From: Betaproteobacteria bacterium RIFCSPLOWO2_02_FULL_63_19
Lineage (GTDB): Bacteria > Pseudomonadota > Gammaproteobacteria > Burkholderiales > SG8-39
Assembly (NCBI GenBank): GCA_001770415.1
Contig: MEQX01000015.1
Coordinates: 31,453-74,633 of the forward strand
DNA: 43,181 nt
Reading direction: 5' to 3'
The position numbers were made by a program, and so were the translations under genes. The notes beneath the pieces were generated by a model. The model was not told the origin of the DNA. It made no database searches and saw only the letters and a program-made list of their open reading frames with translations. Positions 10,678 to 41,845 of this stretch are shown here, piece by piece. Position 1 is the first letter of the stretch, and the number at the start of each line of letters is the position of its first letter.

Positions 10678-13326
10678 ATGAATTGGAGGTCCCTCCGGGT
10701 ACAGGCACGTATTGCGTTCGGTCTCGGCGCGCTTTGTCTTGGGGGCATTACATTCGCCGCGCCACCTCGACTGGCCGCCGGCGATACATTTTCGATGGCG
10801 CTGAGCACCAACGGCGAGGTATACGCGTGGGGCAGCAACATCTTTTCGCAACTGGGCGACGGCACGGGCGCGTTTAACCCCAACCCCTCCATAGCGGCCG
10901 TCGTGCCGGGCGTGAGCCGAATCGCCGGCGGAAACCAATGCAGCTACGCTTTGATGGAAAACGGGACGCTCTGGGCCTGGGGTGACAACACCAACGGACA
11001 ACTCGGTGACGGCACCACGCGGTCACACATCAACCCTGTTCGCGTTACGGGTATTCAAGAGCCCATCCTTGGTGTTGCCTCTGGCGCACGTCATGCACTT
11101 GCCGTCGATCGGAACGGCCAAGTCTGGGCTTGGGGTTCCGGCGACTACGGTCAACTGGGTCGCGAGACGACGCGCATCGAATCCACGCCATTGCCGGTGA
11201 ACGGCGTGCCACAGGCGACTGCGGTATCCGCGGGCGTCTATCACTCGCTGGCGCTTGCTGTCGATGGCACGGTGTGGGCTTGGGGGTACAACGCCGACGG
11301 AGAGCTCGGCAATGGCGGCACTACCAATAGTGCATTGCCAACCAAGGTGGCGGGCTTATCAAACATCGTTTCGATCGTGGCGGGCGCATACCATAATTTG
11401 GCGCTGGATCGAGATGGCACGGTCTGGGCTTGGGGGTTTGGAGGATCCGGCCGCCTTGGCGACGGTAGCAGCCAGACCAGGACGACGCCGGTCATGGTGC
11501 AGGGGTTGCCGATCGTCGCAAGTATTGCCGCGGCCAACATGAGTGCAGCGATCGATCGCGATGGCGCGGTATGGTTTTGGGGAACCAATCTATACGGCCA
11601 GTTCGGCGAGGCTGGAGTCGAAACCTCATTGCTGCCTCGAAAGAACGCAGGCTTGAGCGCCCTTCGAATCGCCGAGCTGGGATTCGGCTGGTATCACGCG
11701 ATCGCGCGTACGGCAGATGGAAAAGTGCTTACGTGGGGTGGCAATGAGCTTGGACAAATCGGCGATGGAACAATTGCAACGAGCACCGTGCCACTTGAGA
11801 TTTCGCAAATTGACCATGCCATACAGGTGAGCGCAAGCGGACAGCATACCTTTGTTGTCGATGCCGACGCGAACGTGTGGGCGTGGGGGGCCAACGGCAG
11901 CGGCCAACTCGGCGATGCGACGGTAGCACTGAGTAATCTTCCCAAGGCAGTACTTGGGCTCTCGGGAATCGCGGACATCGCGGCGGGTGGCTATCATGCC
12001 CTTGCGCTCGACGTTGGAGGGCATCTTTGGTCGTGGGGTGACAACACCAATGGACAGCTCGGGGATGGCACTACAGGTATGCACGCAATACCCCAGCAAC
12101 TCGCCGAGCCGGCGAACGCCGTGGCGATAGCGGCCGGTCGCGAATTCTCCATCGCGATGGATTCGAACGGCGAAGTCTGGTCCTGGGGGCGCTACCTGAA
12201 TGGACAATTGGGTCGAATAGGAAACAGTCTCGTACCGGCGAAGATATCGGGACTCCCCAAGGTGAAGGCGATAAGCGCGGGGGCCGAGCACGCGTTGGCA
12301 GTCGACGTCGATGGCGGCGTTTGGGCATGGGGGCGTAACGCGGACGGCAACCTCGGCGACGGCGAAACCAAGGACAGGAGTGTTCCGGTACGTGTTACGG
12401 GCGTGCCTCCGCATATCTTGGTTGCCGCGGGGCAGTATCACAGCCTTGGGCTTGCCGCCGACGGCACGGTTTGGGCGTGGGGCAGAAACAGTGATGGTCA
12501 ACTCGGAGACCAGACAACTGACGAAAGGCGCGTGCCGACAATGGTGCCTGGACTGGCAGAGATCGTCGGGATTGCAGCTGCCGGGAGCCACAGCCTGGCA
12601 TGGTCGTCAGACGGAACATTGTGGGCCTGGGGGAGCAACGAAGACGGCCAACTTGGCGCAGGCAGTAGTTCTCGTATTGTTACGTCGCCCGTCGGAATCG
12701 GCGACATTGGTCGAATTACGCATGCGGTTGCAGGATCCAGACATACACTTGCAACGCGCGAAGACGGATTGGTTTGGGCTTGGGGGCGCAATTTCGAGGG
12801 CCAACTGGGCGACGGGACCTTTGCAGCCTACAACCAGCCGGTTCTCGCGGTAAACCAGACTCTCACTGGCGTTCTCGACCTGAATTCCTTGGTCACCGAC
12901 AGCATCCCGACCGGGAAATACCCGCCGTTTCTTGCCAGGGCCACGCGGACCGGGGACTTAAGCGGATTGTCGCTCTCGGTGGAGGTCAAGGGCATCTCAA
13001 TAACAGGGATTTTCGCCTCCGAGATGGGCCGATTCGCGGCCACCTACAATGTCTATGTCGGAGCCAGCGTTTCCTCGGGCGGCACGCCAATCTATTTTCA
13101 ACTCGATGCAATCAACACTTGGAGCACTCTACGATTGCCGATGGCGGAATATCTGCGCGGGGTGACGCTGGACAGCCAAAACGATGTGGTCACGGCACAG
13201 CTTCTTCAGAACGTTGACCTTTCGGGGCTTCCCGGGGCCGAAATTCTAGTGGGGTACGGAACCGATTCAGACGAGATGCTGGGAAGCAAGCGCTACAGAG
13301 TCATTTTTACCGTGCCGGCGCAGTAG
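10678..13326 (+). CDS. Secreted RCC1-repeat (beta-propeller) protein with about 150-aa C-terminal non-RCC1 domain
   Basis: 882 aa. A GAGGTGG ribosome-binding site precedes the ATG. The signal peptide is RIAFGLGALCLGGITFAAP. At least 13 repeats follow the pattern GxxHSLALxxDGxVWAWGxNxxGQLGDGT. The C-terminal tail resembles the C-terminus of the 9155..10594 protein. Confidence 0.85.
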   Translation: MNWRSLRVQARIAFGLGALCLGGITFAAPPRLAAGDTFSMALSTNGEVYAWGSNIFSQLGDGTGAFNPNPSIAAVVPGVSRIAGGNQCSYALMENGTLWAWGDNTNGQLGDGTTRSHINPVRVTGIQEPILGVASGARHALAVDRNGQVWAWGSGDYGQLGRETTRIESTPLPVNGVPQATAVSAGVYHSLALAVDGTVWAWGYNADGELGNGGTTNSALPTKVAGLSNIVSIVAGAYHNLALDRDGTVWAWGFGGSGRLGDGSSQTRTTPVMVQGLPIVASIAAANMSAAIDRDGAVWFWGTNLYGQFGEAGVETSLLPRKNAGLSALRIAELGFGWYHAIARTADGKVLTWGGNELGQIGDGTIATSTVPLEISQIDHAIQVSASGQHTFVVDADANVWAWGANGSGQLGDATVALSNLPKAVLGLSGIADIAAGGYHALALDVGGHLWSWGDNTNGQLGDGTTGMHAIPQQLAEPANAVAIAAGREFSIAMDSNGEVWSWGRYLNGQLGRIGNSLVPAKISGLPKVKAISAGAEHALAVDVDGGVWAWGRNADGNLGDGETKDRSVPVRVTGVPPHILVAAGQYHSLGLAADGTVWAWGRNSDGQLGDQTTDERRVPTMVPGLAEIVGIAAAGSHSLAWSSDGTLWAWGSNEDGQLGAGSSSRIVTSPVGIGDIGRITHAVAGSRHTLATREDGLVWAWGRNFEGQLGDGTFAAYNQPVLAVNQTLTGVLDLNSLVTDSIPTGKYPPFLARATRTGDLSGLSLSVEVKGISITGIFASEMGRFAATYNVYVGASVSSGGTPIYFQLDAINTWSTLRLPMAEYLRGVTLDSQNDVVTAQLLQNVDLSGLPGAEILVGYGTDSDEMLGSKRYRVIFTVPAQ

Positions 13327-34493: not shown

Positions 34494-34906
34494 AGCCGCG
34501 CTCCCGGGAGCGGTGAGCCTGCCTTTCTAGGTACGGTAAGCGCGATCACTCGAACTACGGTGCATGCGCGGGTGAGGCAGCGCGTTCAGCATGTTGCCAG
34601 ATTCGAGCATCATCCCACCTATCAAAGTGCCCCGAAGACTGGGGGAAGACCAGAACTCCTCGACCATGCTCTCGAGGCCCTCGTAGCGGGCACTATGGAA
34701 TTCGTCCTGCGCAACGGGCTGCCCGGGGTCATACGGCGCGAGCAGCGTCTTTGTGCCGCCTTTCTTTCCCGCGATCAGCATTCCGCACGATTCTCGACCA
34801 ACCGGTTCAAATCGGCCTTAGGGCGACCCGACCTGATCCCGGATTCGTGGGATTGACAGTCAAGTTCAGCGGCAGCACAATGTGCGCCCATTACTGTCGA
34901 GGCGAC

Positions 34907-34999
34907 ATGAGAACAGTGGCACCAATGAACGAATTGCGGACCGGATCGCTGCAAAGCTGCAGCGAGGCCCCCGCGTATCCGGGAGCGGCGTTCGAGTAG
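34907..34999 (+). CDS. Small ORF A (30 aa, MRTVAPMNELRTGSLQSCSEAPAYPGAAFE), immediately followed by an intrinsic terminator
   Basis: A GAGGCG ribosome-binding site lies 5 nt upstream of the ATG. It is in frame within track ORF 34751..34999 and is paralogous at the DNA level to small ORF B. It is not supported beyond this context. Confidence 0.2.
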   Translation: MRTVAPMNELRTGSLQSCSEAPAYPGAAFE

Positions 35000-35021
35000 C
35001 GCGGCGCGCGATCGACCCGTG

Positions 35022-35054
35022 GCCCGGACTGCGCGAGCGCTCCGGGCTTTTTTG
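35022..35054 (+). terminator. Rho-independent terminator (GCCCGGA...TCCGGGC + TTTTTTG)
   Basis: A 7-bp GC stem with a 12-nt loop is followed by a T6 run. Confidence 0.6.
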
Positions 35055-35089
35055 TTTCTGGTTGAACGTGAACGACGACGAGTGAACTG

Positions 35090-35218
35090 ATGAGGACAGG
35101 ATCAAACGTGACGAAATGCAGCCAAGCGGCACCAGATCTGCGCGCCGCCTCGCCCGCGCTCGTGCTCGAGTACGGCGATCGGACAGCGCCCGCAATCCAG
35201 GCGGAGGAAGGAATGTAA
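35090..35218 (+). CDS. Small ORF B (42 aa, MRTGSNVTKCSQAAPDLRAASPALVLEYGDRTAPAIQAEEGM)
   Basis: Runs from the ATG at 35090 to a TAA at 35216-35218. Its 5' end (ATGAGGACAGGATCAAACGTGACGAA) resembles that of ORF A (ATGAGAACAGTGGCACCAATGAACGAA). A second terminator follows it. Confidence 0.2.
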   Translation: MRTGSNVTKCSQAAPDLRAASPALVLEYGDRTAPAIQAEEGM

Positions 35219-35245
35219 CGTACGCACCAGTTGCGTTCTCACGAA

Positions 35246-35282
35246 GCCCGGGTTGCGCCGCAAGGCCCCCGGGCTTTTTTGT
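35246..35282 (+). terminator. Rho-independent terminator (GCCCGGG...CCCGGGC + TTTTTTG)
   Basis: A GC stem is followed by a T6 run, and it sits immediately before the first tRNA-like gene. The tail (CCGGGCTTTTTTGT) is nearly identical to that of the first terminator. Confidence 0.6.
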
Positions 35283-35359
35283 GCCCCGCCGGCGGAATCG
35301 GCATACGCACGCGTTTCAGAAACGCGCATCTCCGGGTTCGAATCCCGGGTGGGGTACCA
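35283..35359 (+). tRNA. tRNA-like gene, anticodon CAG (Leu box) on a short-variable-arm (type I) body
   Basis: A cloverleaf can be drawn. Acceptor is GCCCCGC/GTGGGGT (two G-U pairs). Anticodon stem CGCGT/ACGCG with loop TTCAGAA. T-arm is CCGGG-TTCGAAT-CCCGG, with A73 and an encoded CCA. A Leu anticodon with a 5-nt variable loop is non-canonical. Confidence 0.55.
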
Positions 35360-35502
35360 GAGTTTTGCAGCAGAAGTTTTGCATTACCCGCGCCGGCACA
35401 GCGTCCGGGACTACGCGGTTTGCTCTTTGACAATTTGGATGTGGCACAACTTCGTCCGCGCGGGCAGGTGCCGCGCGCGGACGGAGTGTGGATGACGCAC
35501 GT

Positions 35503-35577
35503 GCAGACATGGCTTAACGGGCAGAGCGCGACGTTGCCAGCGTCGAGGCGCGGGTTCAAGACCTGCTGTCTGCACCA
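35503..35577 (+). tRNA. tRNA-Gly (GCC)
   Basis: Acceptor GCAGACA/TGTCTGC is perfect. D stem is GCTT/GAGC. Anticodon stem CGACG/CGTCG with loop TTGCCAG. T-arm is GCGGG-TTCAAGA-CCTGC and CCA is encoded. Confidence 0.8.
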
Positions 35578-35583
35578 GTTTTC

Positions 35584-35658
35584 TTTCCCGTCGTCTAACG
35601 GTCAGGACCGCGGCCCTTCAAGCCGCGTATGCCGGTTCGAGTCCGGCCGGGAATGCCA
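35584..35658 (+). tRNA. tRNA-Glu (TTC)-like, non-canonical (C33, U1-U72)
   Basis: It has a Glu-type 3-bp D stem (GTC/GAC). Anticodon stem GCGGC/GCCGC is perfect, with loop CCTTCAA (C at position 33). T-arm is GCCGG-TTCGAGT-CCGGC and CCA is encoded. The first acceptor pair is mismatched. Confidence 0.55.
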
Positions 35659-35665
35659 AACGTTC

Positions 35666-35746
35666 GGAAGGTGGCGCTCGTGCAAGCAAACGGTTTCGAA
35701 CACCGTCGCCAACCCGATGCGGGTTCGCCTCCTTCACCTTCCGCTA
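35666..35746 (+). tRNA. tRNA-like, anticodon CGA (Ser box), about 12-nt variable region, no encoded CCA
   Basis: Acceptor GGAAGGT/ACCTTCC is a perfect 7 bp. Anticodon stem ACGGT/ACCGT with loop TTCGAAC. The T-stem is weak (GCGGG-TTCGCCT-CCTTC). The 3' tail reads G-CTA. The D-arm is not cleanly resolved by eye. Confidence 0.4.
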
Positions 35747-35747
35747 T

Positions 35748-35823
35748 GGGGACGTGGCTCAATCGCCAGAGCGCCTGCCTTGCAAGCAGGAGGGTGTCGG
35801 TTGGACTCCGACCGTCTCCACCA
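35748..35823 (+). tRNA. tRNA-Ala (TGC) with G3:U70 but aberrant T-loop (TTGGACT)
   Basis: Acceptor GGGGACG/CGTCTCC includes G3-U70. D stem GCTC/GAGC. Anticodon stem CCTGC/GCAGG with loop CTTGCAA. T-arm is GTCGG-TTGGACT-CCGAC, with G56 instead of C56. CCA is encoded. Confidence 0.7.
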
Positions 35824-35824
35824 A

Positions 35825-35901
35825 CTCGCTGTAGCGCAGCTGGCCAGCGCGCCTCGTTCGGGGCGAGGAGACCGCAGGTTCGAATCCTGCCGGCGAGACC
35901 A
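35825..35901 (+). tRNA. tRNA-Pro (CGG)
   Basis: Acceptor CTCGCTG/CGGCGAG has a C1-G72 pair as in bacterial tRNA-Pro. D stem GCGC/GCGC. Anticodon stem CCTCG/CGAGG with loop TTCGGGG. T-arm is GCAGG-TTCGAAT-CCTGC and CCA is encoded. Confidence 0.8.
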
Positions 35902-35906
35902 ACATT

Positions 35907-35983
35907 ACCTCCTTAGTTCAACGGAACGAGAGCGCGCGGCCACGGACCGCGAGATGAGGGTTCGAATCCTTCCGGGGGTACCA
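35907..35983 (+). tRNA. tRNA-Arg (ACG)-like, non-canonical (C33, G37, A1-U72, 7-66 mismatch)
   Basis: D stem GTTC/GAGC with a 10-nt loop. Anticodon stem CGCGG/CCGCG is perfect, with loop CCACGGA. T-arm is GAGGG-TTCGAAT-CCTTC and CCA is encoded. Confidence 0.55.
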
Positions 35984-35992
35984 GTTCGGCTC

Positions 35993-36065
35993 GGCACTGT
36001 AACTCAGAGGCCAGAGTGCCCGCCTGTCGAGCGGAAGACCGCGGGTTCGAATCCCGTGAGCGTCG
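35993..36065 (+). tRNA. tRNA-Asp (GTC)-like, degenerate acceptor, no encoded CCA
   Basis: D stem ACTC/GAGT. Anticodon loop CTGTCGA. T-arm is GCGGG-TTCGAAT-CCCGT. Acceptor GGCACTG/GAGCGTC pairs at 5 of 7 positions. The 3' tail is G-CGA. Confidence 0.5.
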
Positions 36066-36077
36066 CGAGCATCCGCA

Positions 36078-36153
36078 CGGCGCGTAACTTAACGGCGAAA
36101 GGTCCTGACTCTTAATCAGCGAGATGCAGGTTCGAATCCTGCCGCGCCGACCA
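36078..36153 (+). tRNA. tRNA-Lys (CTT)
   Basis: Acceptor CGGCGCG/CGCGCCG is a perfect 7 bp. D stem ACTT/AGGT. Anticodon loop CTCTTAA. T-arm is GCAGG-TTCGAAT-CCTGC, with A73 and an encoded CCA. Position 26 is missing or the anticodon stem is 4 bp. Confidence 0.7.
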
Positions 36154-36155
36154 CG

Positions 36156-36232
36156 CCCCGCGTAGCTCAGCCGGAAGAGCGCCTGCCTTGTAAGCAGGAG
36201 GACGCGCGTTCGAATCGACGCCCGGGGCACCA
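36156..36232 (+). tRNA. tRNA-Thr (TGT)-like with degenerate T-stem
   Basis: D stem GCTC/GAGC. Anticodon stem CCTGC/GCAGG with loop CTTGTAA. The T region GCGCG-TTCGAAT-CGACG pairs poorly. Acceptor CCCCGCG/CCCGGGG pairs at 6 of 7. The 3' tail is CACCA. Confidence 0.45.
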
Positions 36233-36233
36233 T

Positions 36234-36309
36234 GCTTCCGTAGCTGGTCTGGTGAAAGCGCCGGCCTGAAAAGCCGGAGAGGTTCGTTCGAATCGAACGG
36301 GAAGCGCCA
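36234..36309 (+). tRNA. tRNA-Phe (GAA)
   Basis: Acceptor GCTTCCG/GGGAAGC pairs at 6 of 7. Anticodon stem CCGGC/GCCGG is perfect, with loop CTGAAAA. T-arm is GTTCG-TTCGAAT-CGAAC and CCA is encoded. The D stem is 3 bp. Confidence 0.75.
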
Positions 36310-36314
36310 ACAGA

Positions 36315-36389
36315 AGGGGCGTAGTTCAGCGGCAGAACGCCGGACTCTGAATCCGGATGTCCCTGGTTCGATCCCAGGCGTCCCCGCCA
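36315..36389 (+). tRNA. tRNA-Gln (CTG)
   Basis: D stem GTTC/GAAC. Anticodon stem CCGGA/TCCGG with loop CTCTGAA. T-arm is CCTGG-TTCGATC-CCAGG. Acceptor AGGGGCG/CGTCCCC pairs at 6 of 7, with a 1-72 A-C mismatch. CCA is encoded. Confidence 0.7.
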
Positions 36390-36395
36390 GTTAAT

Positions 36396-36471
36396 GCCGG
36401 TCCAGCTCAGCGAGCAGAGCATTCCCCTGATAAGGGAAAGACCCGCAGTTCGAGTCCACGGGCCGGTACCC
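36396..36471 (+). tRNA. tRNA-Ile (GAT)-like; 3' CCC instead of CCA, two T-stem mismatches
   Basis: Acceptor GCCGGTC/GGCCGGT has two G-U pairs. D stem GCTC/GAGC. Anticodon stem TTCCC/GGGAA with loop CTGATAA. T-arm CGCAG-TTCGAGT-CCACG resembles enterobacterial Ile GGTGG-TTCAAGT-CCACT but carries two stem mutations. Confidence 0.55.
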
Positions 36472-36476
36472 GTCAT

Positions 36477-36552
36477 CGTCCAGTAGCTCAATCTGTGGAG
36501 CGGCGCGCTGTTGACGCGAGGGCTGCAGGTTCGAAGCCTGCCTGCACAGCCA
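36477..36552 (+). tRNA. tRNA-Asn (GTT)-like, degenerate acceptor
   Basis: D stem GCTC/GAGC. Anticodon stem GCGCG/CGCGA with loop CTGTTGA. T-arm is GCAGG-TTCGAAG-CCTGC. Acceptor CGTCCAG/CTGCACA pairs at 5 of 7. CCA is encoded. Confidence 0.55.
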
Positions 36553-36804
36553 GTTTCAATGGCGATCTTGATGTAGGAGCAGCACGGCGGAACGTGACTC
36601 CGCAGGCGCCGGTGCGATTCCGGCAGATCACCCCATCCCGGCTGCCACATCCCAAGTAATGCTCGCCGCGATTCGCGGCGGGCGTAAAGAGTTTGTCGTG
36701 ACCGGTTCTGCAGCGGGTAAGGCTCGTGAGTCCTGCCTGGCGCGCTCGGCCCGAAACATCGGCCCTGTGTGTACCGCGGAAACGGGAGCGACGGACACCA
36801 CGAA

Positions 36805-36877
36805 GTGTGGATAGCTCAGTGGAAAGAGCAATCGGCATAGGTCCGATGAGTCGCGGGTTCGAATCCCGCTCCGAAGC
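36805..36877 (+). tRNA. tRNA-like gene with non-canonical anticodon loop (CATAGGT; A33; anticodon position reads TAG), no CCA
   Basis: D stem GCTC/GAGC with loop AGTGGAAA. Anticodon stem ATCGG/CCGAT. T-arm GCGGG-TTCGAAT-CCCGC is perfect. Acceptor GTGTGGA/TCCGAAG is poor, with mismatches at 1-72 and 3-70. A weak AT-rich hairpin (36881-36900) follows it. Confidence 0.4.
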
Positions 36878-37154: not shown

Positions 37155-37379
37155 ATGTTGATGAATGAGGTGGCATTAACGGTTCGCCTGACTGGCCGCG
37201 AAGCGGATGTGCTGCGGCTGATCGCGCGCGGCTGCACGTACGCGCAAGTCGCCGAGCGGCTCGGCATGTCGGCGCACACGGTGGGCTCTCACGTCAAGAA
37301 CGCCTACCGCAAGCTCGACGTCCACTCGGCGCCTGCGGCGGTGATGCGCGCCATCCAGCTGCGCCTGCTCGAGACATGA
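37155..37379 (+). CDS. LuxR/GerE-type HTH transcriptional regulator (stand-alone 74-aa HTH)
   Basis: LTGREADVLRLIARGCTYAQVAERLGMSAHTVGSHVKNAYRKL is a canonical LuxR C-terminal HTH. A GGAG ribosome-binding site precedes the ATG. Confidence 0.8.
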   Translation: MLMNEVALTVRLTGREADVLRLIARGCTYAQVAERLGMSAHTVGSHVKNAYRKLDVHSAPAAVMRAIQLRLLET

Positions 37380-37408: not shown

Positions 37409-38557
37409 ATGATGATGCCGTTTCGCAAGTTTCGTGTGAAGAAGGACGAACGTGCGCTGCTGTTCGACCGCGGCGACTTCGTCGAGGTGCTGGGTCCGGG
37501 CGAGCACGTTCGCTTCGACCCGCTGTTCCGTCTCGCGCTGCAGACGTTCGCGCTTGCGGAGCCGCGCTTCGAGCACCGGCTGGGCGACTGGCTGGTGAAG
37601 GCCGAGCGTGAAGTCGTGGAGCGCGAGTTCCACTTCGTCGAGCTGGGGCCGACCGAGGTGGGCATGCTCTTCGCGGACGGCGTGCTGCTCGAAGTGCTGG
37701 CGCCGAACACCCGCCAGCTGTACTGGAAGGGTTACATCGACCTGCGCTTCGAGCGTATCGACATCGCGACCGACTTCGCGGTCGACGCGAAGCTGGTGCC
37801 GCAGCTGATCGCCTTCACCGGCCACGACTTCAAGGTGCTGGTGAAGGGCGGCGCGGGCGTGTACGGCGTGCAGGTGCCGGCTTTCCATGTGGCGGTGCTG
37901 TACGTGAACGGCAAGCTGCATGGCGTGATCGAGGCGGGCGCATACGCGTACTGGGCCTTCGGCCGCGATCTGCGCGTCGAGTTCGTGGACCTGCGTCTGC
38001 AGGCAATCGAGGTGGCGGGCCAGGAGATCCTGACCAAGGACAAGGTGCCGCTGCGCGTGAACCTGAACGCCGGCTACCGCGTGACCGATGTCGTGACCGC
38101 GTACGGGAAGCAGGCCAAGCCGGCTGACTTTCTGTACAAGGAGCTCCAGTTCGGTCTGCGCGCGGCGGTGGGTACACGTACCCTGGACGAGCTGCTGGAA
38201 AACAAGGGCGTGATCGACCAGGTAGTTGCGGCGCACGTCGCGCAGCGCGTCGAGGCCTTCGGCCTCGAGGTGGATTCGGTCGGCGTCAAGGACATCATCC
38301 TGCCGGGTGACATGAAGACGATCCTGGCGAAGGTGGTGGAAGCGGACAAGATCGCGCTCGCCAACGTGATCCGTCGTCGCGAAGAAACCGCGGCGACCCG
38401 TTCGCTGCTCAACACCGCCCGCGTGATGGAGGACAACCCGACCGCGCTGCGGCTGAAGGAGCTGGAGACGCTGGAAAAGGTCACCGAAAAGATCGACAAG
38501 ATCTCGGTCTTTGGCGGCCTCGACGGCGTGCTCAAGGATCTGGTGAAGATCCGATGA
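37409..38557 (+). CDS. SPFH / band-7 (slipin/stomatin-like) domain protein
   Basis: 382 aa. The SPFH core is …EVAGQEILTKDKVPLRVNLNAGYRVTD… followed by …VKDIILPGDMKTILAKVVEADKIALANVIRRREETAATRSL…. Confidence 0.85.
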   Translation: MMMPFRKFRVKKDERALLFDRGDFVEVLGPGEHVRFDPLFRLALQTFALAEPRFEHRLGDWLVKAEREVVEREFHFVELGPTEVGMLFADGVLLEVLAPNTRQLYWKGYIDLRFERIDIATDFAVDAKLVPQLIAFTGHDFKVLVKGGAGVYGVQVPAFHVAVLYVNGKLHGVIEAGAYAYWAFGRDLRVEFVDLRLQAIEVAGQEILTKDKVPLRVNLNAGYRVTDVVTAYGKQAKPADFLYKELQFGLRAAVGTRTLDELLENKGVIDQVVAAHVAQRVEAFGLEVDSVGVKDIILPGDMKTILAKVVEADKIALANVIRRREETAATRSLLNTARVMEDNPTALRLKELETLEKVTEKIDKISVFGGLDGVLKDLVKIR

Positions 38558-40732: not shown

Positions 40733-41845
40733 TTAGCCCTTGATGTTGAGGATCGGCAGCACATGGGCCACGACCTCCACCATCTCATTTTGCCGGCGCA
40801 TCACCTCGAAGATGCTCTTGTAGGCGAATGGAGACTCGTCAAGCGTTTCATCCGTCACCCGCGCCACAACGCCGGCCATCGTTTCGGCGAAGCTCTCCAT
40901 CGTCAGCGTCCGTTTGGCTTCCTTGCGCCCGAGCACTCGCCCCGCACCGTGTGAGCTGGACCACAGCGCATCCGCGTTGGCCTTGCCGCGCACAATGAAT
41001 GAGCCGTCCCGCATGTTTCCCGGGATGACGCCCATCATTCCTGCCTCGGCATGTGTCGCACCCTTGCGGTGAATCCAGAGGCCGTCTTTCTGCTCTGCGT
41101 GGTTGTGGTTGCTGTTGATGAGCGCGCCCCAATCCGCCGTGCCAGGCAACAGCGCGTCCATCACGGCGACGATCCGCCGCATCATCTCGAGCCGATTCTC
41201 CAGCGCGAACGCGAGGCAGAAGACCATGTCCTTCGTGTAGTCCGCTCCTTCCATGCTTTCGACTGCGAACCCGAAATGCCCTTCGCGGGCCTTTCCATCG
41301 CCACTGGCGAGCCTCATATAGTGTGAGGCCGCTGCGTGTCCGATGCCACGGCTCCCGGAATGAATGATGATCCAAACCTTCCCGGTTTCGTCCGCGCCAA
41401 CCTCGGCAAAGTGGTTTCCTCCGCCAAGCGAGCCGAGCTGCCTGTGTCCGTTCTTGGCGAAAATTTCCTGCATCTTGTTGGTGCGCGGCAGGCTGTCGCC
41501 TTCGCTCCACTCGGTGTTTCTGGCGTTGTGCGAGAAGCCGACCGGCACTGCCTTGTAAATGCCGTCGAAAATCTTTCGCGCCTTTGCGCGCACGTCTTCG
41601 GCTTTGTGGCTGGTCGGCAGCGCGCACATTCCGCAGCCAATGTCGTACCCCACCCATGCAGGGAGCACTACGCCATCCGTTGCAACCACGCCGCCAATCG
41701 GCAGCGAGTAGCCGGCATGTGCATCAGGCATCAGCGCCCCACGCACTGCGAACGGCTGTTGCATGGCGCTCGCGAATTGATTCAACGCCTCCTGTTCAAG
41801 CACATCGGCGAATATCCGGTAGGGTTTGTCGGTGTTGATTTGCAT
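40733..41845 (-). CDS. rtcB: RtcB-family RNA 3'-phosphate ligase
   Basis: 370 aa. It has RtcB metal- and GTP-binding motifs: PDAHAGYSLPIGG, GGGNHFAE, HSGSRGIGH, NHNH and SSHGAGR. Confidence 0.9.
   Translation of the reverse strand: MQINTDKPYRIFADVLEQEALNQFASAMQQPFAVRGALMPDAHAGYSLPIGGVVATDGVVLPAWVGYDIGCGMCALPTSHKAEDVRAKARKIFDGIYKAVPVGFSHNARNTEWSEGDSLPRTNKMQEIFAKNGHRQLGSLGGGNHFAEVGADETGKVWIIIHSGSRGIGHAAASHYMRLASGDGKAREGHFGFAVESMEGADYTKDMVFCLAFALENRLEMMRRIVAVMDALLPGTADWGALINSNHNHAEQKDGLWIHRKGATHAEAGMMGVIPGNMRDGSFIVRGKANADALWSSSHGAGRVLGRKEAKRTLTMESFAETMAGVVARVTDETLDESPFAYKSIFEVMRRQNEMVEVVAHVLPILNIKG

What the first reader, a model, noticed from the sequence alone, without database searches (positions are those of the whole stretch)
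35283..36877. Many array members are non-canonical
Manual folding shows several anomalies. The tRNA at 35283-35359 has a Leu anticodon (CAG) on a type-I body with a 5-nt variable loop, and the one at 36805-36877 has anticodon position TAG with A33. Leu tRNAs are normally type II, so both look like identity-switched or decoy molecules. The Glu-like (35584-35658) and Arg-like (35907-35983) tRNAs have C33 instead of the near-universal U33. The Ala tRNA keeps the G3:U70 AlaRS determinant but has a TTGGACT T-loop (G56). Four units lack an encoded CCA, ending CTA (35666-35746), CGA (35993-36065), CCC (36396-36471) and AGC (36805-36877). Several have one or two acceptor-stem mismatches, including at pair 1-72. 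By eye only Gly, Pro, Lys and Phe look fully canonical. Either this is an array decaying under relaxed selection, or the anticodon-loop changes are functional. C33 and other loop changes are the kind of alteration reported to make phage-encoded tRNAs resistant to anticodon nucleases.
Basis: partly seen in the sequence, partly recalled or inferred. Interest (0 to 1): 0.65.

Follow-up and report, generated by a model that had tools for sequence, protein, structure and literature searches.

The report
Reserve tRNA array beside RNA-repair module
This is a conserved extra set of 14 transfer-RNA genes, several with unusual but maintained shapes and a few decaying, inserted into the leader of a Band-7/SPFH "RNA-repair" module whose own tRNA look-alike was mistaken for a faulty leucine tRNA.

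Summary
Confirmed: Leu(CAG) with a 5-nt variable loop, C33 in Glu and Arg (also His, which was missed), G56 in Ala, missing CCA in Asp, Ile and the last unit, and several 1-72 mismatches.

The either/or interpretation is too simple. Dozens of uncultured Burkholderiales and Gammaproteobacteria carry collinear arrays upstream of the same SPFH/Band-7 gene. These tRNAs are 84-85% identical between species where long spacers are 44-61% identical. Stems change by compensation, anticodons are retained, and position 33 is always a pyrimidine.

Several "anomalies" are maintained family traits:
- a variable-arm-less tRNA-Leu;
- a swapped C19:G56 pair in Ala;
- a G55 T-loop in His;
- a 1-72 mismatch in Gln;
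- recurrent C33.

This copy is nevertheless the most damaged of its clade. Lesions in Asp, Asn, Arg, Ile and Glu and a Ser-like remnant look lineage-specific.

The "Leu-TAG/A33" unit is not a Leu tRNA. It matches the previously predicted band-7-associated tRNA-like RNA and is preceded by a structured RNA absent from Rfam.

The most likely function, which is inferred, is a stress-inducible reserve tRNA set coupled to RNA repair.

The parts
34853..34881 (+). Promoter-like site TTGACA-17-CACAAT, upstream of a short transcript and small ORF (34907-34999).
   Evidence: Consensus scan. TTGAC-N17-tACAAT is conserved in related loci.
35022..35054 (+). Conserved GC hairpin followed by a T-run (terminator-like hairpin 1).
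   Evidence: Read from the sequence. It is 92-97% identical in 10 related loci.
35246..35281 (+). Conserved GC hairpin followed by a T-run (terminator-like hairpin 2). It abuts the first tRNA and follows a small ORF (35090-35218).
   Evidence: In array-less L008 it lies about 80 nt from element X.
35283..35359 (+). tRNA-Leu(CAG) without a long variable arm (type-I shape). It has U33, A73 and an encoded CCA.
   Evidence: In 18 species 99.2% of cells are paired and 11 of 20 pairs changed on both sides. Its D-arm matches the type-II Leu of related arrays.
35427..35446 (+). Conserved motif TTKACAAYTTGGATGTGGCA in the spacer after tRNA-Leu. Its function is unknown; it may be an operator or an RNA signal.
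   Evidence: Alignment. It occurs once in the window with 0 expected by chance. It occurs once per locus, after the Leu gene, in 11 other species.
35503..35577 (+). tRNA-Gly(GCC). No stem mismatches; discriminator A73.
35584..35658 (+). tRNA-Glu(TTC) with C33 and a U1.U72 mismatch.
   Evidence: C33 also occurs in the orthologs of L013, L018 and L032. U1 is specific to the window.
35666..35744 (+). Sub-threshold tRNA-like remnant with a Ser(CGA)-type anticodon arm, no T-loop and no CCA.
   Evidence: Called only at the relaxed ARAGORN threshold -ps90. Fold. No Rfam hit. No homolog in relatives.
35748..35823 (+). tRNA-Ala(TGC) with G3:U70, A73 and a swapped elbow pair C19:G56.
   Evidence: L021 carries the same swap.
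35825..35901 (+). tRNA-Pro(CGG), canonical, with C1-G72 and A73.
   Evidence: The anticodon stem covaries in 11 species.
35907..35983 (+). tRNA-Arg(ACG) with C33, G37 and a U7.C66 mismatch.
   Evidence: C33 also occurs in L049. The 7-66 mismatch is specific to the window.
35993..36066 (+). tRNA-Asp(GTC) with several stem mismatches and no CCA. It is probably decaying.
   Evidence: Orthologs have perfect acceptor stems and CCA.
36078..36153 (+). tRNA-Lys(CTT) with D-stem and 27-43 mismatches.
36155..36232 (+). Thr(TGT)-like unit with an irregular acceptor/T-arm: only 2 standard T-stem pairs, or a bulged stem.
   Evidence: It is 97-99% identical in L049 and L021, where the anticodon is AGT.
36234..36309 (+). 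tRNA-Phe(GAA) with an atypical D-arm, a 4-nt variable loop, G73 and a G7.G66 mismatch.
   Evidence: A canonical housekeeping Phe in L032 serves for contrast.
36315..36389 (+). tRNA-Gln(CTG) with an A1.C72 mismatch, G73, G2-C71 and G3-C70.
   Evidence: A 1-72 mismatch is present in all 7 orthologs.
36395..36471 (+). tRNA-Ile(GAT) with C8, two T-stem mismatches and a 3' end of A-CCC.
36477..36552 (+). tRNA-Asn(GTT) with C1.A72, C4.C69 and G37.
   Evidence: Orthologs pair perfectly at these positions.
36561..36635 (+). tRNA-His(GTG) including G-1. It has C73, C33, the T-loop UGCGAUU (G55) and a D-loop without GG.
36686..36800 (+). Conserved structured RNA element 'X', immediately 5' of the tRNA-like element(s). 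It is not in Rfam 15.
   Evidence: The covariance model gives 65 hits, all on the + strand and all in this position. 93.6% of cells are paired and 20 of 28 pairs changed on both sides. No Rfam hit.
36805..36877 (+). Band-7-associated tRNA-like RNA (element B). It has a conserved D, anticodon and T-arm body, a weak outer acceptor stem, no CCA and a free-varying 'anticodon' (here TAG, with A33).
   Evidence: Literature.
37155..37379 (+). Small LuxR/GerE-type helix-turn-helix protein (74 aa). It is present only in the close clade.
37409..38557 (+). SPFH/Band-7 (slipin-type) protein, 382 aa. It is the anchor of the module.
   Evidence: Pfam PF01145, E = 1.1e-28. 304 relatives were confirmed and 80 loci examined.
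40733..41845 (-). RtcB-family RNA ligase, 2.2 kb downstream on the opposite strand. The link to the module is uncertain here.
   Evidence: RtcB lies next to SPFH on the same strand in 31 of 80 related loci.

Best explanation
**What it is.**
- The region holds a 14-gene long tRNA array (35283-36635).
- The array carries one tRNA per amino acid. Each one reads the codon the host uses most for that amino acid.
- The array sits as a cassette inside the non-coding leader of a Band-7/SPFH module.
- The 15th unit (36805-36877) is the module's own tRNA-like RNA, the b7a-tRNA. It is preceded by a structured RNA, X (36686-36800).

**Shown here.**
- The array family is collinear across species and evolves under purifying selection.
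- Several oddities are maintained family traits, so these look like working but specialised tRNAs:
  - a variable-arm-less tRNA-Leu;
  - a C19:G56 swap in Ala;
  - a G55 T-loop in His;
  - a 1-72 mismatch in Gln;
  - recurrent C33.
- This lineage's copy has also picked up private lesions, so part of it is decaying:
  - damage in Asp, Asn, Arg, Ile, Glu and Phe;
  - a Ser-like remnant;
  - two lost CCA ends.

**Inferred.**
- The array is probably a normally silent, stress-inducible reserve tRNA set.
- It would keep translation going when housekeeping tRNAs are cleaved or depleted by toxins, phage-triggered nucleases or translation inhibitors.
- It would act alongside Band-7/b7a-tRNA(/RtcB) RNA repair.
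- Loop variants such as C33 may lower sensitivity to anticodon nucleases. That step is untested.
For: **Family and selection.**
- Of 80 species' loci found with the SPFH protein, 71 have at least one same-strand tRNA-like unit just upstream. 31 have at least five tRNAs.
- The close clade shares one gene order, Leu-Gly-Glu-Ala-Pro-Arg-Asp-Lys-Val-Met-Thr-Phe-Gln-Ile-Asn-His-A-B, with lineage-specific losses.
- tRNAs are 84-85% identical where long spacers are 44-61% identical.
- Anticodon stems of Pro, Asp, Ile, Val and Leu change by compensation.
- Position 33 is a pyrimidine in 275 of 275 array tRNAs. Position 37 is a purine in 271 of 275.
- Identity elements are kept: Ala G3:U70, His G-1:C73, Pro C1-G72/A73, Gln G73/G2-C71/G3-C70, Leu A73. 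CCA is encoded in 12 of 14.
- All 14 anticodons read the most-used codon of their amino acid.

**Private decay.** The window has 1.29 stem mismatches per tRNA, against 0.44 in the close clade (p = 0.0014).

**Repair link.**
- The SPFH gene lies directly downstream.
- RtcB is adjacent on the same strand in 31 of 80 relatives.
- The b7a-tRNA/Band-7/RtcB association has been described before.
- In Anabaena one repressor controls the long tRNA array, rtcB and a slipin gene. The array is induced by translational stress and aids survival.
Against: - There are no expression, charging or cleavage data.
- The host genome is not available, so 'supernumerary' and 'different from the housekeeping isoacceptors' are not shown directly.
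- The closest clade lacks an adjacent RtcB. In the window RtcB is on the opposite strand and only 33-39% identical to the SPFH-linked RtcBs.
- C33 is polymorphic within families rather than fixed. From general knowledge it weakens the U-turn.
- No nuclease or toxin gene lies in the 43-kb window.
- The closest SPFH relatives, L008 and L010, have no array, so it is dispensable.
- No convincing promoter was found for the array.
Confidence: 0.6

Rival explanations
1. The whole array is a non-functional relic. It would be a horizontally acquired tRNA cluster decaying under relaxed selection, with every anomaly being damage.
For: - The window has the highest mismatch load of its clade.
- Asp and Ile have lost CCA, and a remnant unit is present.
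- Relatives have lost different members, and some have no array at all.
Against: - tRNAs are far better conserved than spacers.
- Compensatory changes keep the stems paired.
- Anticodons are conserved and codon-matched.
- There are no purines at position 33 among 275 tRNAs.
- Tertiary pair 19:56 is swapped, not broken.
- The sequence is identical across samples.
Confidence: 0.15
2. The anticodon-loop changes (C33, G37 and position 32/38 variants) are adaptive. They would make the array tRNAs resistant to anticodon nucleases that cleave the housekeeping tRNAs, as proposed for phage tRNAs.
For: - C33 recurs in 26 of 275 array tRNAs, in 8 isotypes and many species. It is present in 8 of 13 Ile genes.
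- Anticodons stay fixed while flanking loop positions vary.
- The array is coupled to an RNA-repair-type module.
- There is a precedent in phage tRNAs.
Against: - C33 is not fixed in any family, and most orthologs keep U33.
- No nuclease was identified in the window.
- The host's own tRNAs are unknown, so no derived difference at a cleavage site can be shown.
- Relaxed constraint on a rarely used tRNA would give the same pyrimidine-only pattern if purines are strongly deleterious.
Confidence: 0.3
3. The two 'Leu' units are identity-switched or decoy molecules: tRNA bodies of another identity carrying Leu anticodons.
For: Both lack the long variable arm that bacterial tRNA-Leu normally has. The TAG unit has no CCA and a poor acceptor stem.
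Against: **CAG unit.**
- Its D-arm UGGCGGAAUCGGCAUACGC and A73 are those of tRNA-Leu.
- A type-II Leu in L047 shares the D-arm and anticodon arm and differs by a 14-nt variable arm. This points to a variable-arm deletion.
- It is conserved with covariation in 18 species.
- From general knowledge, E. coli LeuRS does not need the variable arm.

**TAG unit.** It belongs to a family with 22 different triplets at that position, so TAG is incidental.
Confidence: 0.08
4. The array is cargo of a prophage, integrative element or plasmid. Its oddities would reflect a phage origin.
For: Long tRNA arrays are reported to spread horizontally. The module sits in different gene neighbourhoods in different species. 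Its presence is patchy.
Against: - There is no match in the plasmid collection and only generic tRNA similarity in phages.
- The SPFH protein has no phage homolog.
- The type-I Leu pattern is absent from viral contigs.
- All other genes in the window are ordinary chromosomal functions, with no integrase.
Confidence: 0.1

Closest known systems
[quoted passage not shown] 2021, PMC8421152; TrcR regulon, PMC10272220)
   Same: - Many same-strand tRNA genes with very short spacers, arranged non-periodically.
- Patchy distribution among relatives, with some pseudogene members.
- Linkage or co-regulation with rtcB and with a slipin (SPFH) gene.
   Different: - This array is shorter: 14 genes against 26-43.
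- It is chromosomal and in Burkholderiales.
- It is physically fused to the leader of an SPFH gene that carries tRNA-like RNAs.
- It begins with a variable-arm-less tRNA-Leu.
- The candidate regulator here is a LuxR-type protein or an unknown motif, not an RHH repressor.
- Induction was not tested.
Band-7/SPFH - b7a-tRNA - RtcB RNA-repair system predicted by Burroughs & Aravind 2016 (NAR 44:8525), as summarised in bioRxiv 10.1101/312249
   Same: An SPFH protein has a tRNA-like gene immediately upstream on the same strand. RtcB is adjacent in many relatives.
   Different: - In this window RtcB is not in the operon.
- A LuxR-type gene is inserted between the tRNA-like RNA and SPFH.
- The module carries a full tRNA array and an extra structured RNA (X).
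- I could not read the original paper, so I cannot say whether X, the A/B pair or linked arrays were noted there.
Phage tRNA clusters with anticodon-loop changes predicted to resist anticodon nucleases (van den Berg et al. 2023, PMC10264068)
   Same: One tRNA per amino acid in a tight cluster. Anticodons are kept while flanking loop positions differ.
   Different: - This array is not phage-encoded.
- The loop changes cannot be compared with host tRNAs or with known cleavage sites.
- C33 is not among the changes I could find in that paper's text.
allo-tRNAs and polycistrons of irregular tRNAs (Mukai et al. 2017, PMC5389517)
   Same: A conserved tRNA scaffold with highly diverse anticodons, as in element B. 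Clusters of irregular tRNAs occur in uncultured bacteria, some charged but not used in translation.
   Different: allo-tRNAs have 8/4 or 9/3 acceptor/T arms and a long variable arm. Element B has a 7/5-type body, a 5-nt variable loop, a weak outer acceptor stem and no CCA.
YrlA (Y RNA-like, tRNA-mimicking) RNA of rsr-yrlBA-rtcBA operons
   Same: A tRNA-shaped non-coding RNA encoded with RNA-repair genes. It is proposed to act as a cofactor for a scaffold protein.
   Different: There is no Ro/Rsr protein here. The only Rfam YrlA match (27.6 bits against a gathering score of 69) lies over the Lys/Thr tRNAs and is sub-threshold.
Metazoan mitochondrial tRNA-Leu (general knowledge)
   Same: A tRNA-Leu without the long variable arm.
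   Different: Here it is a bacterial, GC-rich tRNA. It is otherwise canonical and has a bacterial tRNA-Leu D-arm and an encoded CCA.

Membership tests
Long tRNA array (L-array) | Many same-strand tRNA genes at operon-like spacing. | tested here: met
   There are 14 tRNAs in 1,353 bp, and most spacers are 1-11 nt. This is below the 20-gene cut-off of Tran et al. 2016 (PMC4758250).
Long tRNA array (L-array) | Patchy distribution among relatives and dispensability. | tested here: met
   31 of 80 SPFH loci have at least 5 tRNAs. The closest SPFH relatives, L008 and L010, have none.
Long tRNA array (L-array) | Adds supernumerary genes to a complete housekeeping set. | not testable with these tools
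   The host genome is not held. Only two housekeeping tRNAs were seen in related loci.
Long tRNA array (L-array) | Silent under normal growth and induced by translational stress. | not testable with these tools
   This needs expression data.
Band-7 / b7a-tRNA / RtcB repair system | SPFH/Band-7 domain protein. | tested here: met
   PF01145, E = 1.1e-28, residues 155-326.
Band-7 / b7a-tRNA / RtcB repair system | tRNA-like gene immediately upstream on the same strand. | tested here: met
   The window unit is at 36805-36877. The element is present in 71 of 80 loci. The cloverleaf is supported by covariation in 44 species.
Band-7 / b7a-tRNA / RtcB repair system | RtcB ligase encoded adjacently. | tested here: inconclusive
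   In the window RtcB is 2.2 kb away on the opposite strand. It is absent within 10 kb in the close clade. It is adjacent on the same strand in 31 of 80 loci.
Canonical elongator tRNA (each array member) | Cloverleaf scoring above the Rfam tRNA gathering score. | tested here: met
   All 15 units score 34.6-66.2 bits against a gathering score of 29. The unit at 35666-35744 does not.
Canonical elongator tRNA (each array member) | U33. | tested here: not met
   Not met for Glu, Arg and His (C33) or for the last unit (A33). Met for the other 11.
Bacterial tRNA-Leu (type II) | Long variable arm. | tested here: not met
   The variable loop is 5 nt in the window and 4-6 nt in 18 species.
Bacterial tRNA-Leu (type II) | Leu-type D-arm and A73 discriminator. 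| tested here: met
   The D-arm matches type-II Leu genes of related arrays. A73 is present in 17 of 18 species.
Nuclease-resistant phage-type tRNA | Loop change at a known cleavage or recognition site, relative to the host isoacceptor. | not testable with these tools
   Host isoacceptors and the relevant nucleases are unknown.
YrlA / Y RNA | Match to Rfam RF02553 at its gathering score. | tested here: not met
   27.6 bits against 69, lying over ordinary tRNAs.

The most novel reading that the evidence does not exclude
The locus is one unit of an undescribed RNA-centred damage-response island.
- Its sensing or scaffolding core would be a structured RNA (X) plus two tRNA mimics working with a Band-7 protein. 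One mimic (A) has an acceptor stem and CCA but a crippled anticodon loop. The other (B) has no CCA and a freely diversifying 'anticodon'.
- The tRNA array inserted in its leader would supply nuclease-insensitive replacements, namely the variable-arm-less Leu and the C33 species.
- On this reading B's variable triplet tracks the specificity of locally circulating anticodon nucleases.
Probability: 0.2. Interest if true: 0.85.

Novelty: new variant of a known kind. Interest (0 to 1): 0.62.

Why it matters
The purpose of long tRNA arrays in bacteria is still debated. The Band-7/b7a-tRNA module has never been tested experimentally.

This locus family joins the two physically in dozens of species. 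Anabaena joins them only by co-regulation. That gives a concrete hypothesis to test: reserve tRNAs plus RNA repair form one stress module.

The family also offers natural experiments in tRNA design:
- a bacterial tRNA-Leu that has lost its long variable arm yet stays under structural selection;
- a reversed 19:56 elbow pair in Ala;
- repeated U33-to-C changes.

Homologous modules exist in cultured Burkholderia cenocepacia, which carries an X-like element, A' and B upstream of the SPFH homolog. A related island is present in about a quarter of complete E. coli genomes. Genetics is therefore feasible.

A covariation-supported RNA motif (X) that is absent from Rfam is a by-product of this work.

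Tried and rejected
- **Plasmid and phage origin.**
  - Megablast of the array against plasmids found nothing. Distant blastn against phages found only generic single-tRNA similarity.
  - tblastn of SPFH against phages found nothing.
- **Viral scan for the B body.** The pattern gave at least 120 hits. All were ordinary tRNA-Asn, Ile or Lys genes with no SPFH nearby, so the pattern is not specific.
- **Viral scan for the type-I Leu D-arm.** It gave 0 hits.
- **Known defence systems.** PADLOC models matched none of SPFH, hydrolase, LysR or RtcB. LuxR matched only through its helix-turn-helix.
- **Alternative loop placement.** Neither ARAGORN nor Infernal shifts any anticodon loop in a way that restores U33.
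- **Promoter for the array.**
  - The sigma-70 scan found none between 34882 and 37400 on the + strand.
  - The conserved motif after Leu contains TTGACA. In L035 and L020 it lies too close to the next tRNA to be a -35 box.
  - By eye it does not fit sigma-54 spacing either.
- **8/4 fold for the Thr-like unit.** It does not fit, because the 4-bp T-stem would still have two mismatches (read).
- **Element A in the window.** Nothing A-like lies between X and B by eye. A is absent here and in L008.
- **Literature.**
  - Burroughs & Aravind 2016 is not in the held library. The description of b7a-tRNA rests on a citing paper and on my memory of the abstract.
  - The held papers on tRNA arrays do not mention Band-7 or RtcB linkage, apart from the Anabaena studies.

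Full report
**1. What is at the coordinates.**

ARAGORN finds 15 tRNA genes on the + strand between 35283 and 36877 and none elsewhere in the 43-kb window. Rfam's tRNA model scores all 15 above its gathering score, at 34.6-66.2 bits against 29.

The following are real:
- Leu(CAG) is 77 nt with a 5-nt variable loop.
- Glu and Arg have C33.
- The last unit reads C-A-[TAG]-G-T, so it has A33.
- Ala has G3:U70 and the T-loop TTGGACT.
- Asp ends G-C|gag, Ile ends A-CCC, and the last unit has no CCA.
- Pair 1-72 is mismatched in Glu (U.U), Gln (A.C), Asn (C.A) and the last unit (G.G).

The 2.3 kb upstream of the LuxR gene is identical in assemblies from other samples. The one exception is a single polymorphism, A/G at 36413, in one assembly. 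The oddities are therefore not sequencing errors.

Four corrections apply:
- The unit at 35666-35746 is not called at default thresholds by either tool. It appears only at a relaxed ARAGORN threshold, as Ser(CGA) at 35666-35744. It folds into a four-way junction without a T-loop and has no homolog in relatives.
- His also has C33, plus a T-loop UGCGAUU (G55) and a D-loop without GG.
- The members free of stem mismatches are Leu, Gly, Ala and Pro, not Gly, Pro, Lys and Phe.
- G56 in Ala is matched by C19, which reverses the G19:C56 elbow pair. The only ortholog, in L021, carries the same swap.

**2. Context.**

The window is a chromosomal stretch of an uncultured betaproteobacterium of the order Burkholderiales, from reactor metagenomes.

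Upstream of the array lies an Opp/Dpp-type ABC transporter. Downstream lie:
- a 74-aa LuxR-type protein;
- a 382-aa SPFH/Band-7 protein;
- a hydrolase;
- a LysR regulator;
- an RtcB ligase on the opposite strand.

The rest of the window encodes ordinary metabolic and transport functions. It has no integrase, phage or toxin genes. The array has no counterpart in the plasmid collection and only generic tRNA similarity in phages.

**3. Relatives.**

Searching one genome per species with the SPFH protein returned 80 loci, mostly Burkholiderales and Gammaproteobacteria MAGs at 47-85% identity.
- 71 loci have at least one same-strand tRNA-like unit within about 900 nt upstream of SPFH.
- 31 loci have five or more tRNAs within 7 kb upstream.
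- Nine loci have under 1 kb of upstream DNA.

In the 13 closest array-bearing species the gene order is the same: Leu-Gly-Glu-Ala-Pro-Arg-Asp-Lys-Val-Met-Thr-Phe-Gln-Ile-Asn-His, then one or two tRNA-like units. Different members are missing in different lineages. The ABC transporter is not conserved upstream in these loci, so the unit that travels together is the array plus the SPFH module. The two closest SPFH relatives, L008 and L010, have no array.

**4. Selection or decay.**

Several results point to selection on the family:
- Between the window and L049, L013 and L021, orthologous tRNAs are 84-85% identical. The long spacers and the 300 nt upstream of Leu are 44-61% identical.
- Anticodon stems change by paired substitutions. 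Pro shows CCUCG/CGAGG, CCCCG/CGGGG, CGUCG/CGACG and CGUGG/CCACG. Asp, Ile, Val and Lys behave similarly.
- Anticodons are nearly fixed within each positional family.
- Among 275 array tRNAs, position 33 is U in 249, C in 26 and never a purine. Position 37 is a purine in 271.
- Known identity elements are retained: Ala G3:U70, His G-1:C73, Pro C1-G72/A73, Gln G73 with G2-C71 and G3-C70, and Leu A73. CCA is encoded in 12 of the 14.
- Allowing standard wobble, all 14 anticodons read the codon most used for their amino acid in ten genes of the window.

These results argue that the family is used in translation and is not a set of decoys.

The window copy is nevertheless the most damaged of its clade. 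It has 18 mismatches in acceptor, anticodon and T stems across 14 tRNAs. Twelve relatives have 46 mismatches in 104 tRNAs (p = 0.0014). The defects in Asp, Asn, Arg, Glu, Phe and Ile are absent from orthologs. The family is therefore under selection, while this copy is partly decaying.

**5. The type-I Leu.**

The first gene of the array is a 76-79-nt Leu(CAG, UAG or UAA) tRNA in 18 species.
- In their alignment 99.2% of cells form standard pairs.
- 11 of 20 pairs have changes on both sides, and all five anticodon-stem pairs covary.
- No shuffle or slid control comes close.
- The D-arm (UGGCGGAAUCGGCAUACGC) and A73 are those of tRNA-Leu.
- A type-II Leu in L047 has nearly the same D-arm and anticodon arm as the type-I genes of L015, L032 and L033. 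It differs by a 14-nt variable arm.

The simplest history is loss of the variable arm from a tRNA-Leu, not an anticodon switch on another body. From established work on E. coli LeuRS (Asahara et al. 1993; Larkin et al. 2002, cited from memory), the variable arm is not needed for leucylation. Leu identity is therefore plausible but untested.

**6. C33.**

C33 is seen in these isotypes:

| Isotype | tRNAs with C33 |
|---|---|
| Ile | 8 of 13 |
| Glu | 4 of 14 |
| His | 4 of 21 |
| Pro | 4 of 21 |
| Arg | 2 of 20 |
| Leu | 2 of 24 |
| Gly | 1 of 6 |
| Tyr | 1 of 5 |

It is a recurrent and persistent variant, but it is not fixed in any family. This fits either tolerance in rarely used tRNAs or selection, for example against nucleases that cut next to position 33. 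The phage precedent for nuclease-evading loop changes is van den Berg et al. 2023. I found no mention of position 33 in that text.

**7. The last unit.**

The unit at 36805-36877 belongs to a family I call B, found just upstream of SPFH in Beta- and Gammaproteobacteria. In 44 species:
- the D-stem is invariant;
- the anticodon and T stems are 98.6-100% paired, with covariation;
- the inner four acceptor pairs are essentially always paired;
- the outer three pairs are unpaired in 36-66% of sequences;
- there is no CCA.

The 'anticodon' takes 22 different values in the 44 sequences. Entropy is 1.35-1.92 bits at positions 34-36, against 0.67-0.88 bits at positions 32, 33, 37 and 38. TAG is therefore incidental. 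The window copy is unusual only in also having A33, G37 and U38.

Many loci have a second unit, A, abutting B. A has a covarying 7-bp acceptor stem and CCA. Its anticodon loop is CAT in the close clade and often only 6 nt elsewhere. The window and L008 lack A.

[quoted passage not shown] A citing paper reports that it had not been validated experimentally. I could not obtain the original. An RtcB homolog lies on the same strand next to SPFH in 31 of the 80 loci.

**8. Other conserved non-coding parts (outside the finding).**

*Element X.* A roughly 113-nt element lies directly 5' of A/B (window 36686-36800).
- It is detectable by nhmmer in more than 30 loci.
- RNAalifold gives a multi-stem fold in which 13 of 28 pairs are compensated.
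- A covariance model finds 65 copies in 1.3 Mb, all on the + strand and all in that position. These include gammaproteobacterial loci not used to build the model, and three tandem X-A-B cassettes in L057.
- On those 65 copies 93.6% of cells pair and 20 of 28 pairs change on both sides. The covariation score is 0.534, against 0.206 for shuffles and at most 0.137 for slid controls. That alignment was fitted to the model, which inflates the figures somewhat.
- Rfam 15 has no match at E<=1.

*Motif after Leu.* TTKACAAYTTGGATGTGGCA follows the Leu gene once per locus in 12 species.

*Upstream elements.* A conserved promoter-like site, two small ORFs and two terminator-like hairpins lie upstream. 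The hairpins are 92-97% identical between species. In array-less L008, hairpin 2, X and B are contiguous. The array therefore sits as a cassette between hairpin 2 and X.

**9. How it most likely works.**

*Shown:* a conserved, codon-matched tRNA array under structural selection, fused to a Band-7/tRNA-like-RNA module that is often joined by RtcB.

*From the literature:*
- In Anabaena the long tRNA array is silent, is induced by translation inhibitors and improves survival.
- One repressor, TrcR, controls that array, rtcB and the slipin gene alr0740.

*Inferred:* the array here is an inducible reserve that keeps translation running when housekeeping tRNAs are cleaved or depleted, while Band-7/b7a-tRNA(/RtcB) deals with the damaged RNA. 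Loop variants may reduce nuclease sensitivity. I put about 0.6 on this overall reading, about 0.3 on the specific nuclease-resistance claim, and about 0.15 on pure decay.

**10. Novelty.**

Long tRNA arrays and the b7a-tRNA/Band-7 association are both known. None of the following appears in the papers I could read:
- their physical fusion across many species;
- the variable-arm-less bacterial tRNA-Leu;
- the swapped 19:56 pair;
- element X.

The key 2016 paper was not available, so prior description cannot be excluded.

Homologous SPFH modules exist in cultured Burkholderia. B. cenocepacia has an X-like element, A' and B. In E. coli an island between yjbD and lysC encodes a slipin, a nucleotidyltransferase and a zeta-toxin-family protein. 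At least 80% of that stretch is present in 1425 of 5426 complete genomes, with no tRNA detected there.

Noticed in passing
window 36686-36800: Element 'X', a conserved structured RNA of about 113 nt, lies immediately 5' of the tRNA-like units. A covariance model finds 65 copies in 62 related loci, always in this position and on this strand. The fold has strong covariation support and no Rfam 15 match.
   Followed up: yes
window 36805-36877; L008-L087, about 280-700 nt upstream of SPFH: The band-7-associated tRNA-like unit B has 22 different 'anticodons' in 44 species, while loop positions 32, 33, 37 and 38 stay conserved. A second unit, A, has a 7-bp acceptor stem and CCA but often a 6-nt anticodon loop. 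A abuts B in many loci and is absent from the window.
   Followed up: partly
window 35427-35446: The motif TTGACAATTTGGATGTGGCA lies in the spacer after tRNA-Leu. It is conserved once per locus in 12 species, always after the type-I Leu gene. In L035 and L020 it is too close to the next tRNA to be a sigma-70 -35 box. Its function is unknown.
   Followed up: partly
window 34853-35282: A promoter-like site (34853-34881) is followed by two small ORFs (34907-34999 and 35090-35218, both starting MRT). Each ORF is followed by a GC hairpin with a T-run (35022-35054, 35246-35281). The hairpins are 92-97% identical across species, which is more conserved than the tRNAs.
   Followed up: partly
window 36155-36232; L049 8837-8914; L021 1622-1699: The Thr-like unit has only 2 standard T-stem pairs, or a bulged stem with an 8-bp acceptor. 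It is 97-99% identical in three species whose other tRNAs differ by about 15%. The anticodon is TGT in the window and AGT in the other two.
   Followed up: no
window 36561-36635: tRNA-His keeps G-1:C73 but has C33, a T-loop UGCGAUU (G55 instead of U55) and a D-loop lacking GG. The T-loop and D-loop traits are shared by nearly all orthologs, which suggests a remodelled elbow.
   Followed up: partly
L057 2395-3747: A Beggiatoa MAG carries three tandem copies of the X + two tRNA-like unit cassette upstream of its SPFH gene.
   Followed up: no
window 40733-41845 (- strand): An RtcB-family RNA ligase (370 aa, below the NCBIfam cut-offs) lies 2.2 kb from SPFH on the opposite strand. The closest relatives have no RtcB within 10 kb, whereas 31 more distant loci have one on the same strand next to SPFH.
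   Followed up: partly
L208/L210 (E. coli, between yjbD and lysC); L209 5440-5741 (Burkholderia cenocepacia): SPFH homologs occur in cultured bacteria. In E. coli an island encodes a slipin, a nucleotidyltransferase and a zeta-toxin-family protein. At least 80% of it is present in 1425 of 5426 complete genomes, and ARAGORN finds no tRNA there. B. cenocepacia has an X-like sequence, a truncated A and a B unit upstream of its SPFH homolog.
   Followed up: partly
L064 2707-2783; L034 6265-6342: Variable-arm-less Leu(TAG) and Leu(TAA) tRNAs also occur in more distant arrays, including a gammaproteobacterial locus. The type-I Leu is therefore not confined to the close clade.
   Followed up: no
window 10678-13326: An 882-aa protein made almost entirely of RCC1 repeats (Pfam RCC1-like domain, 801 bits). 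It is unrelated to the finding.
   Followed up: no
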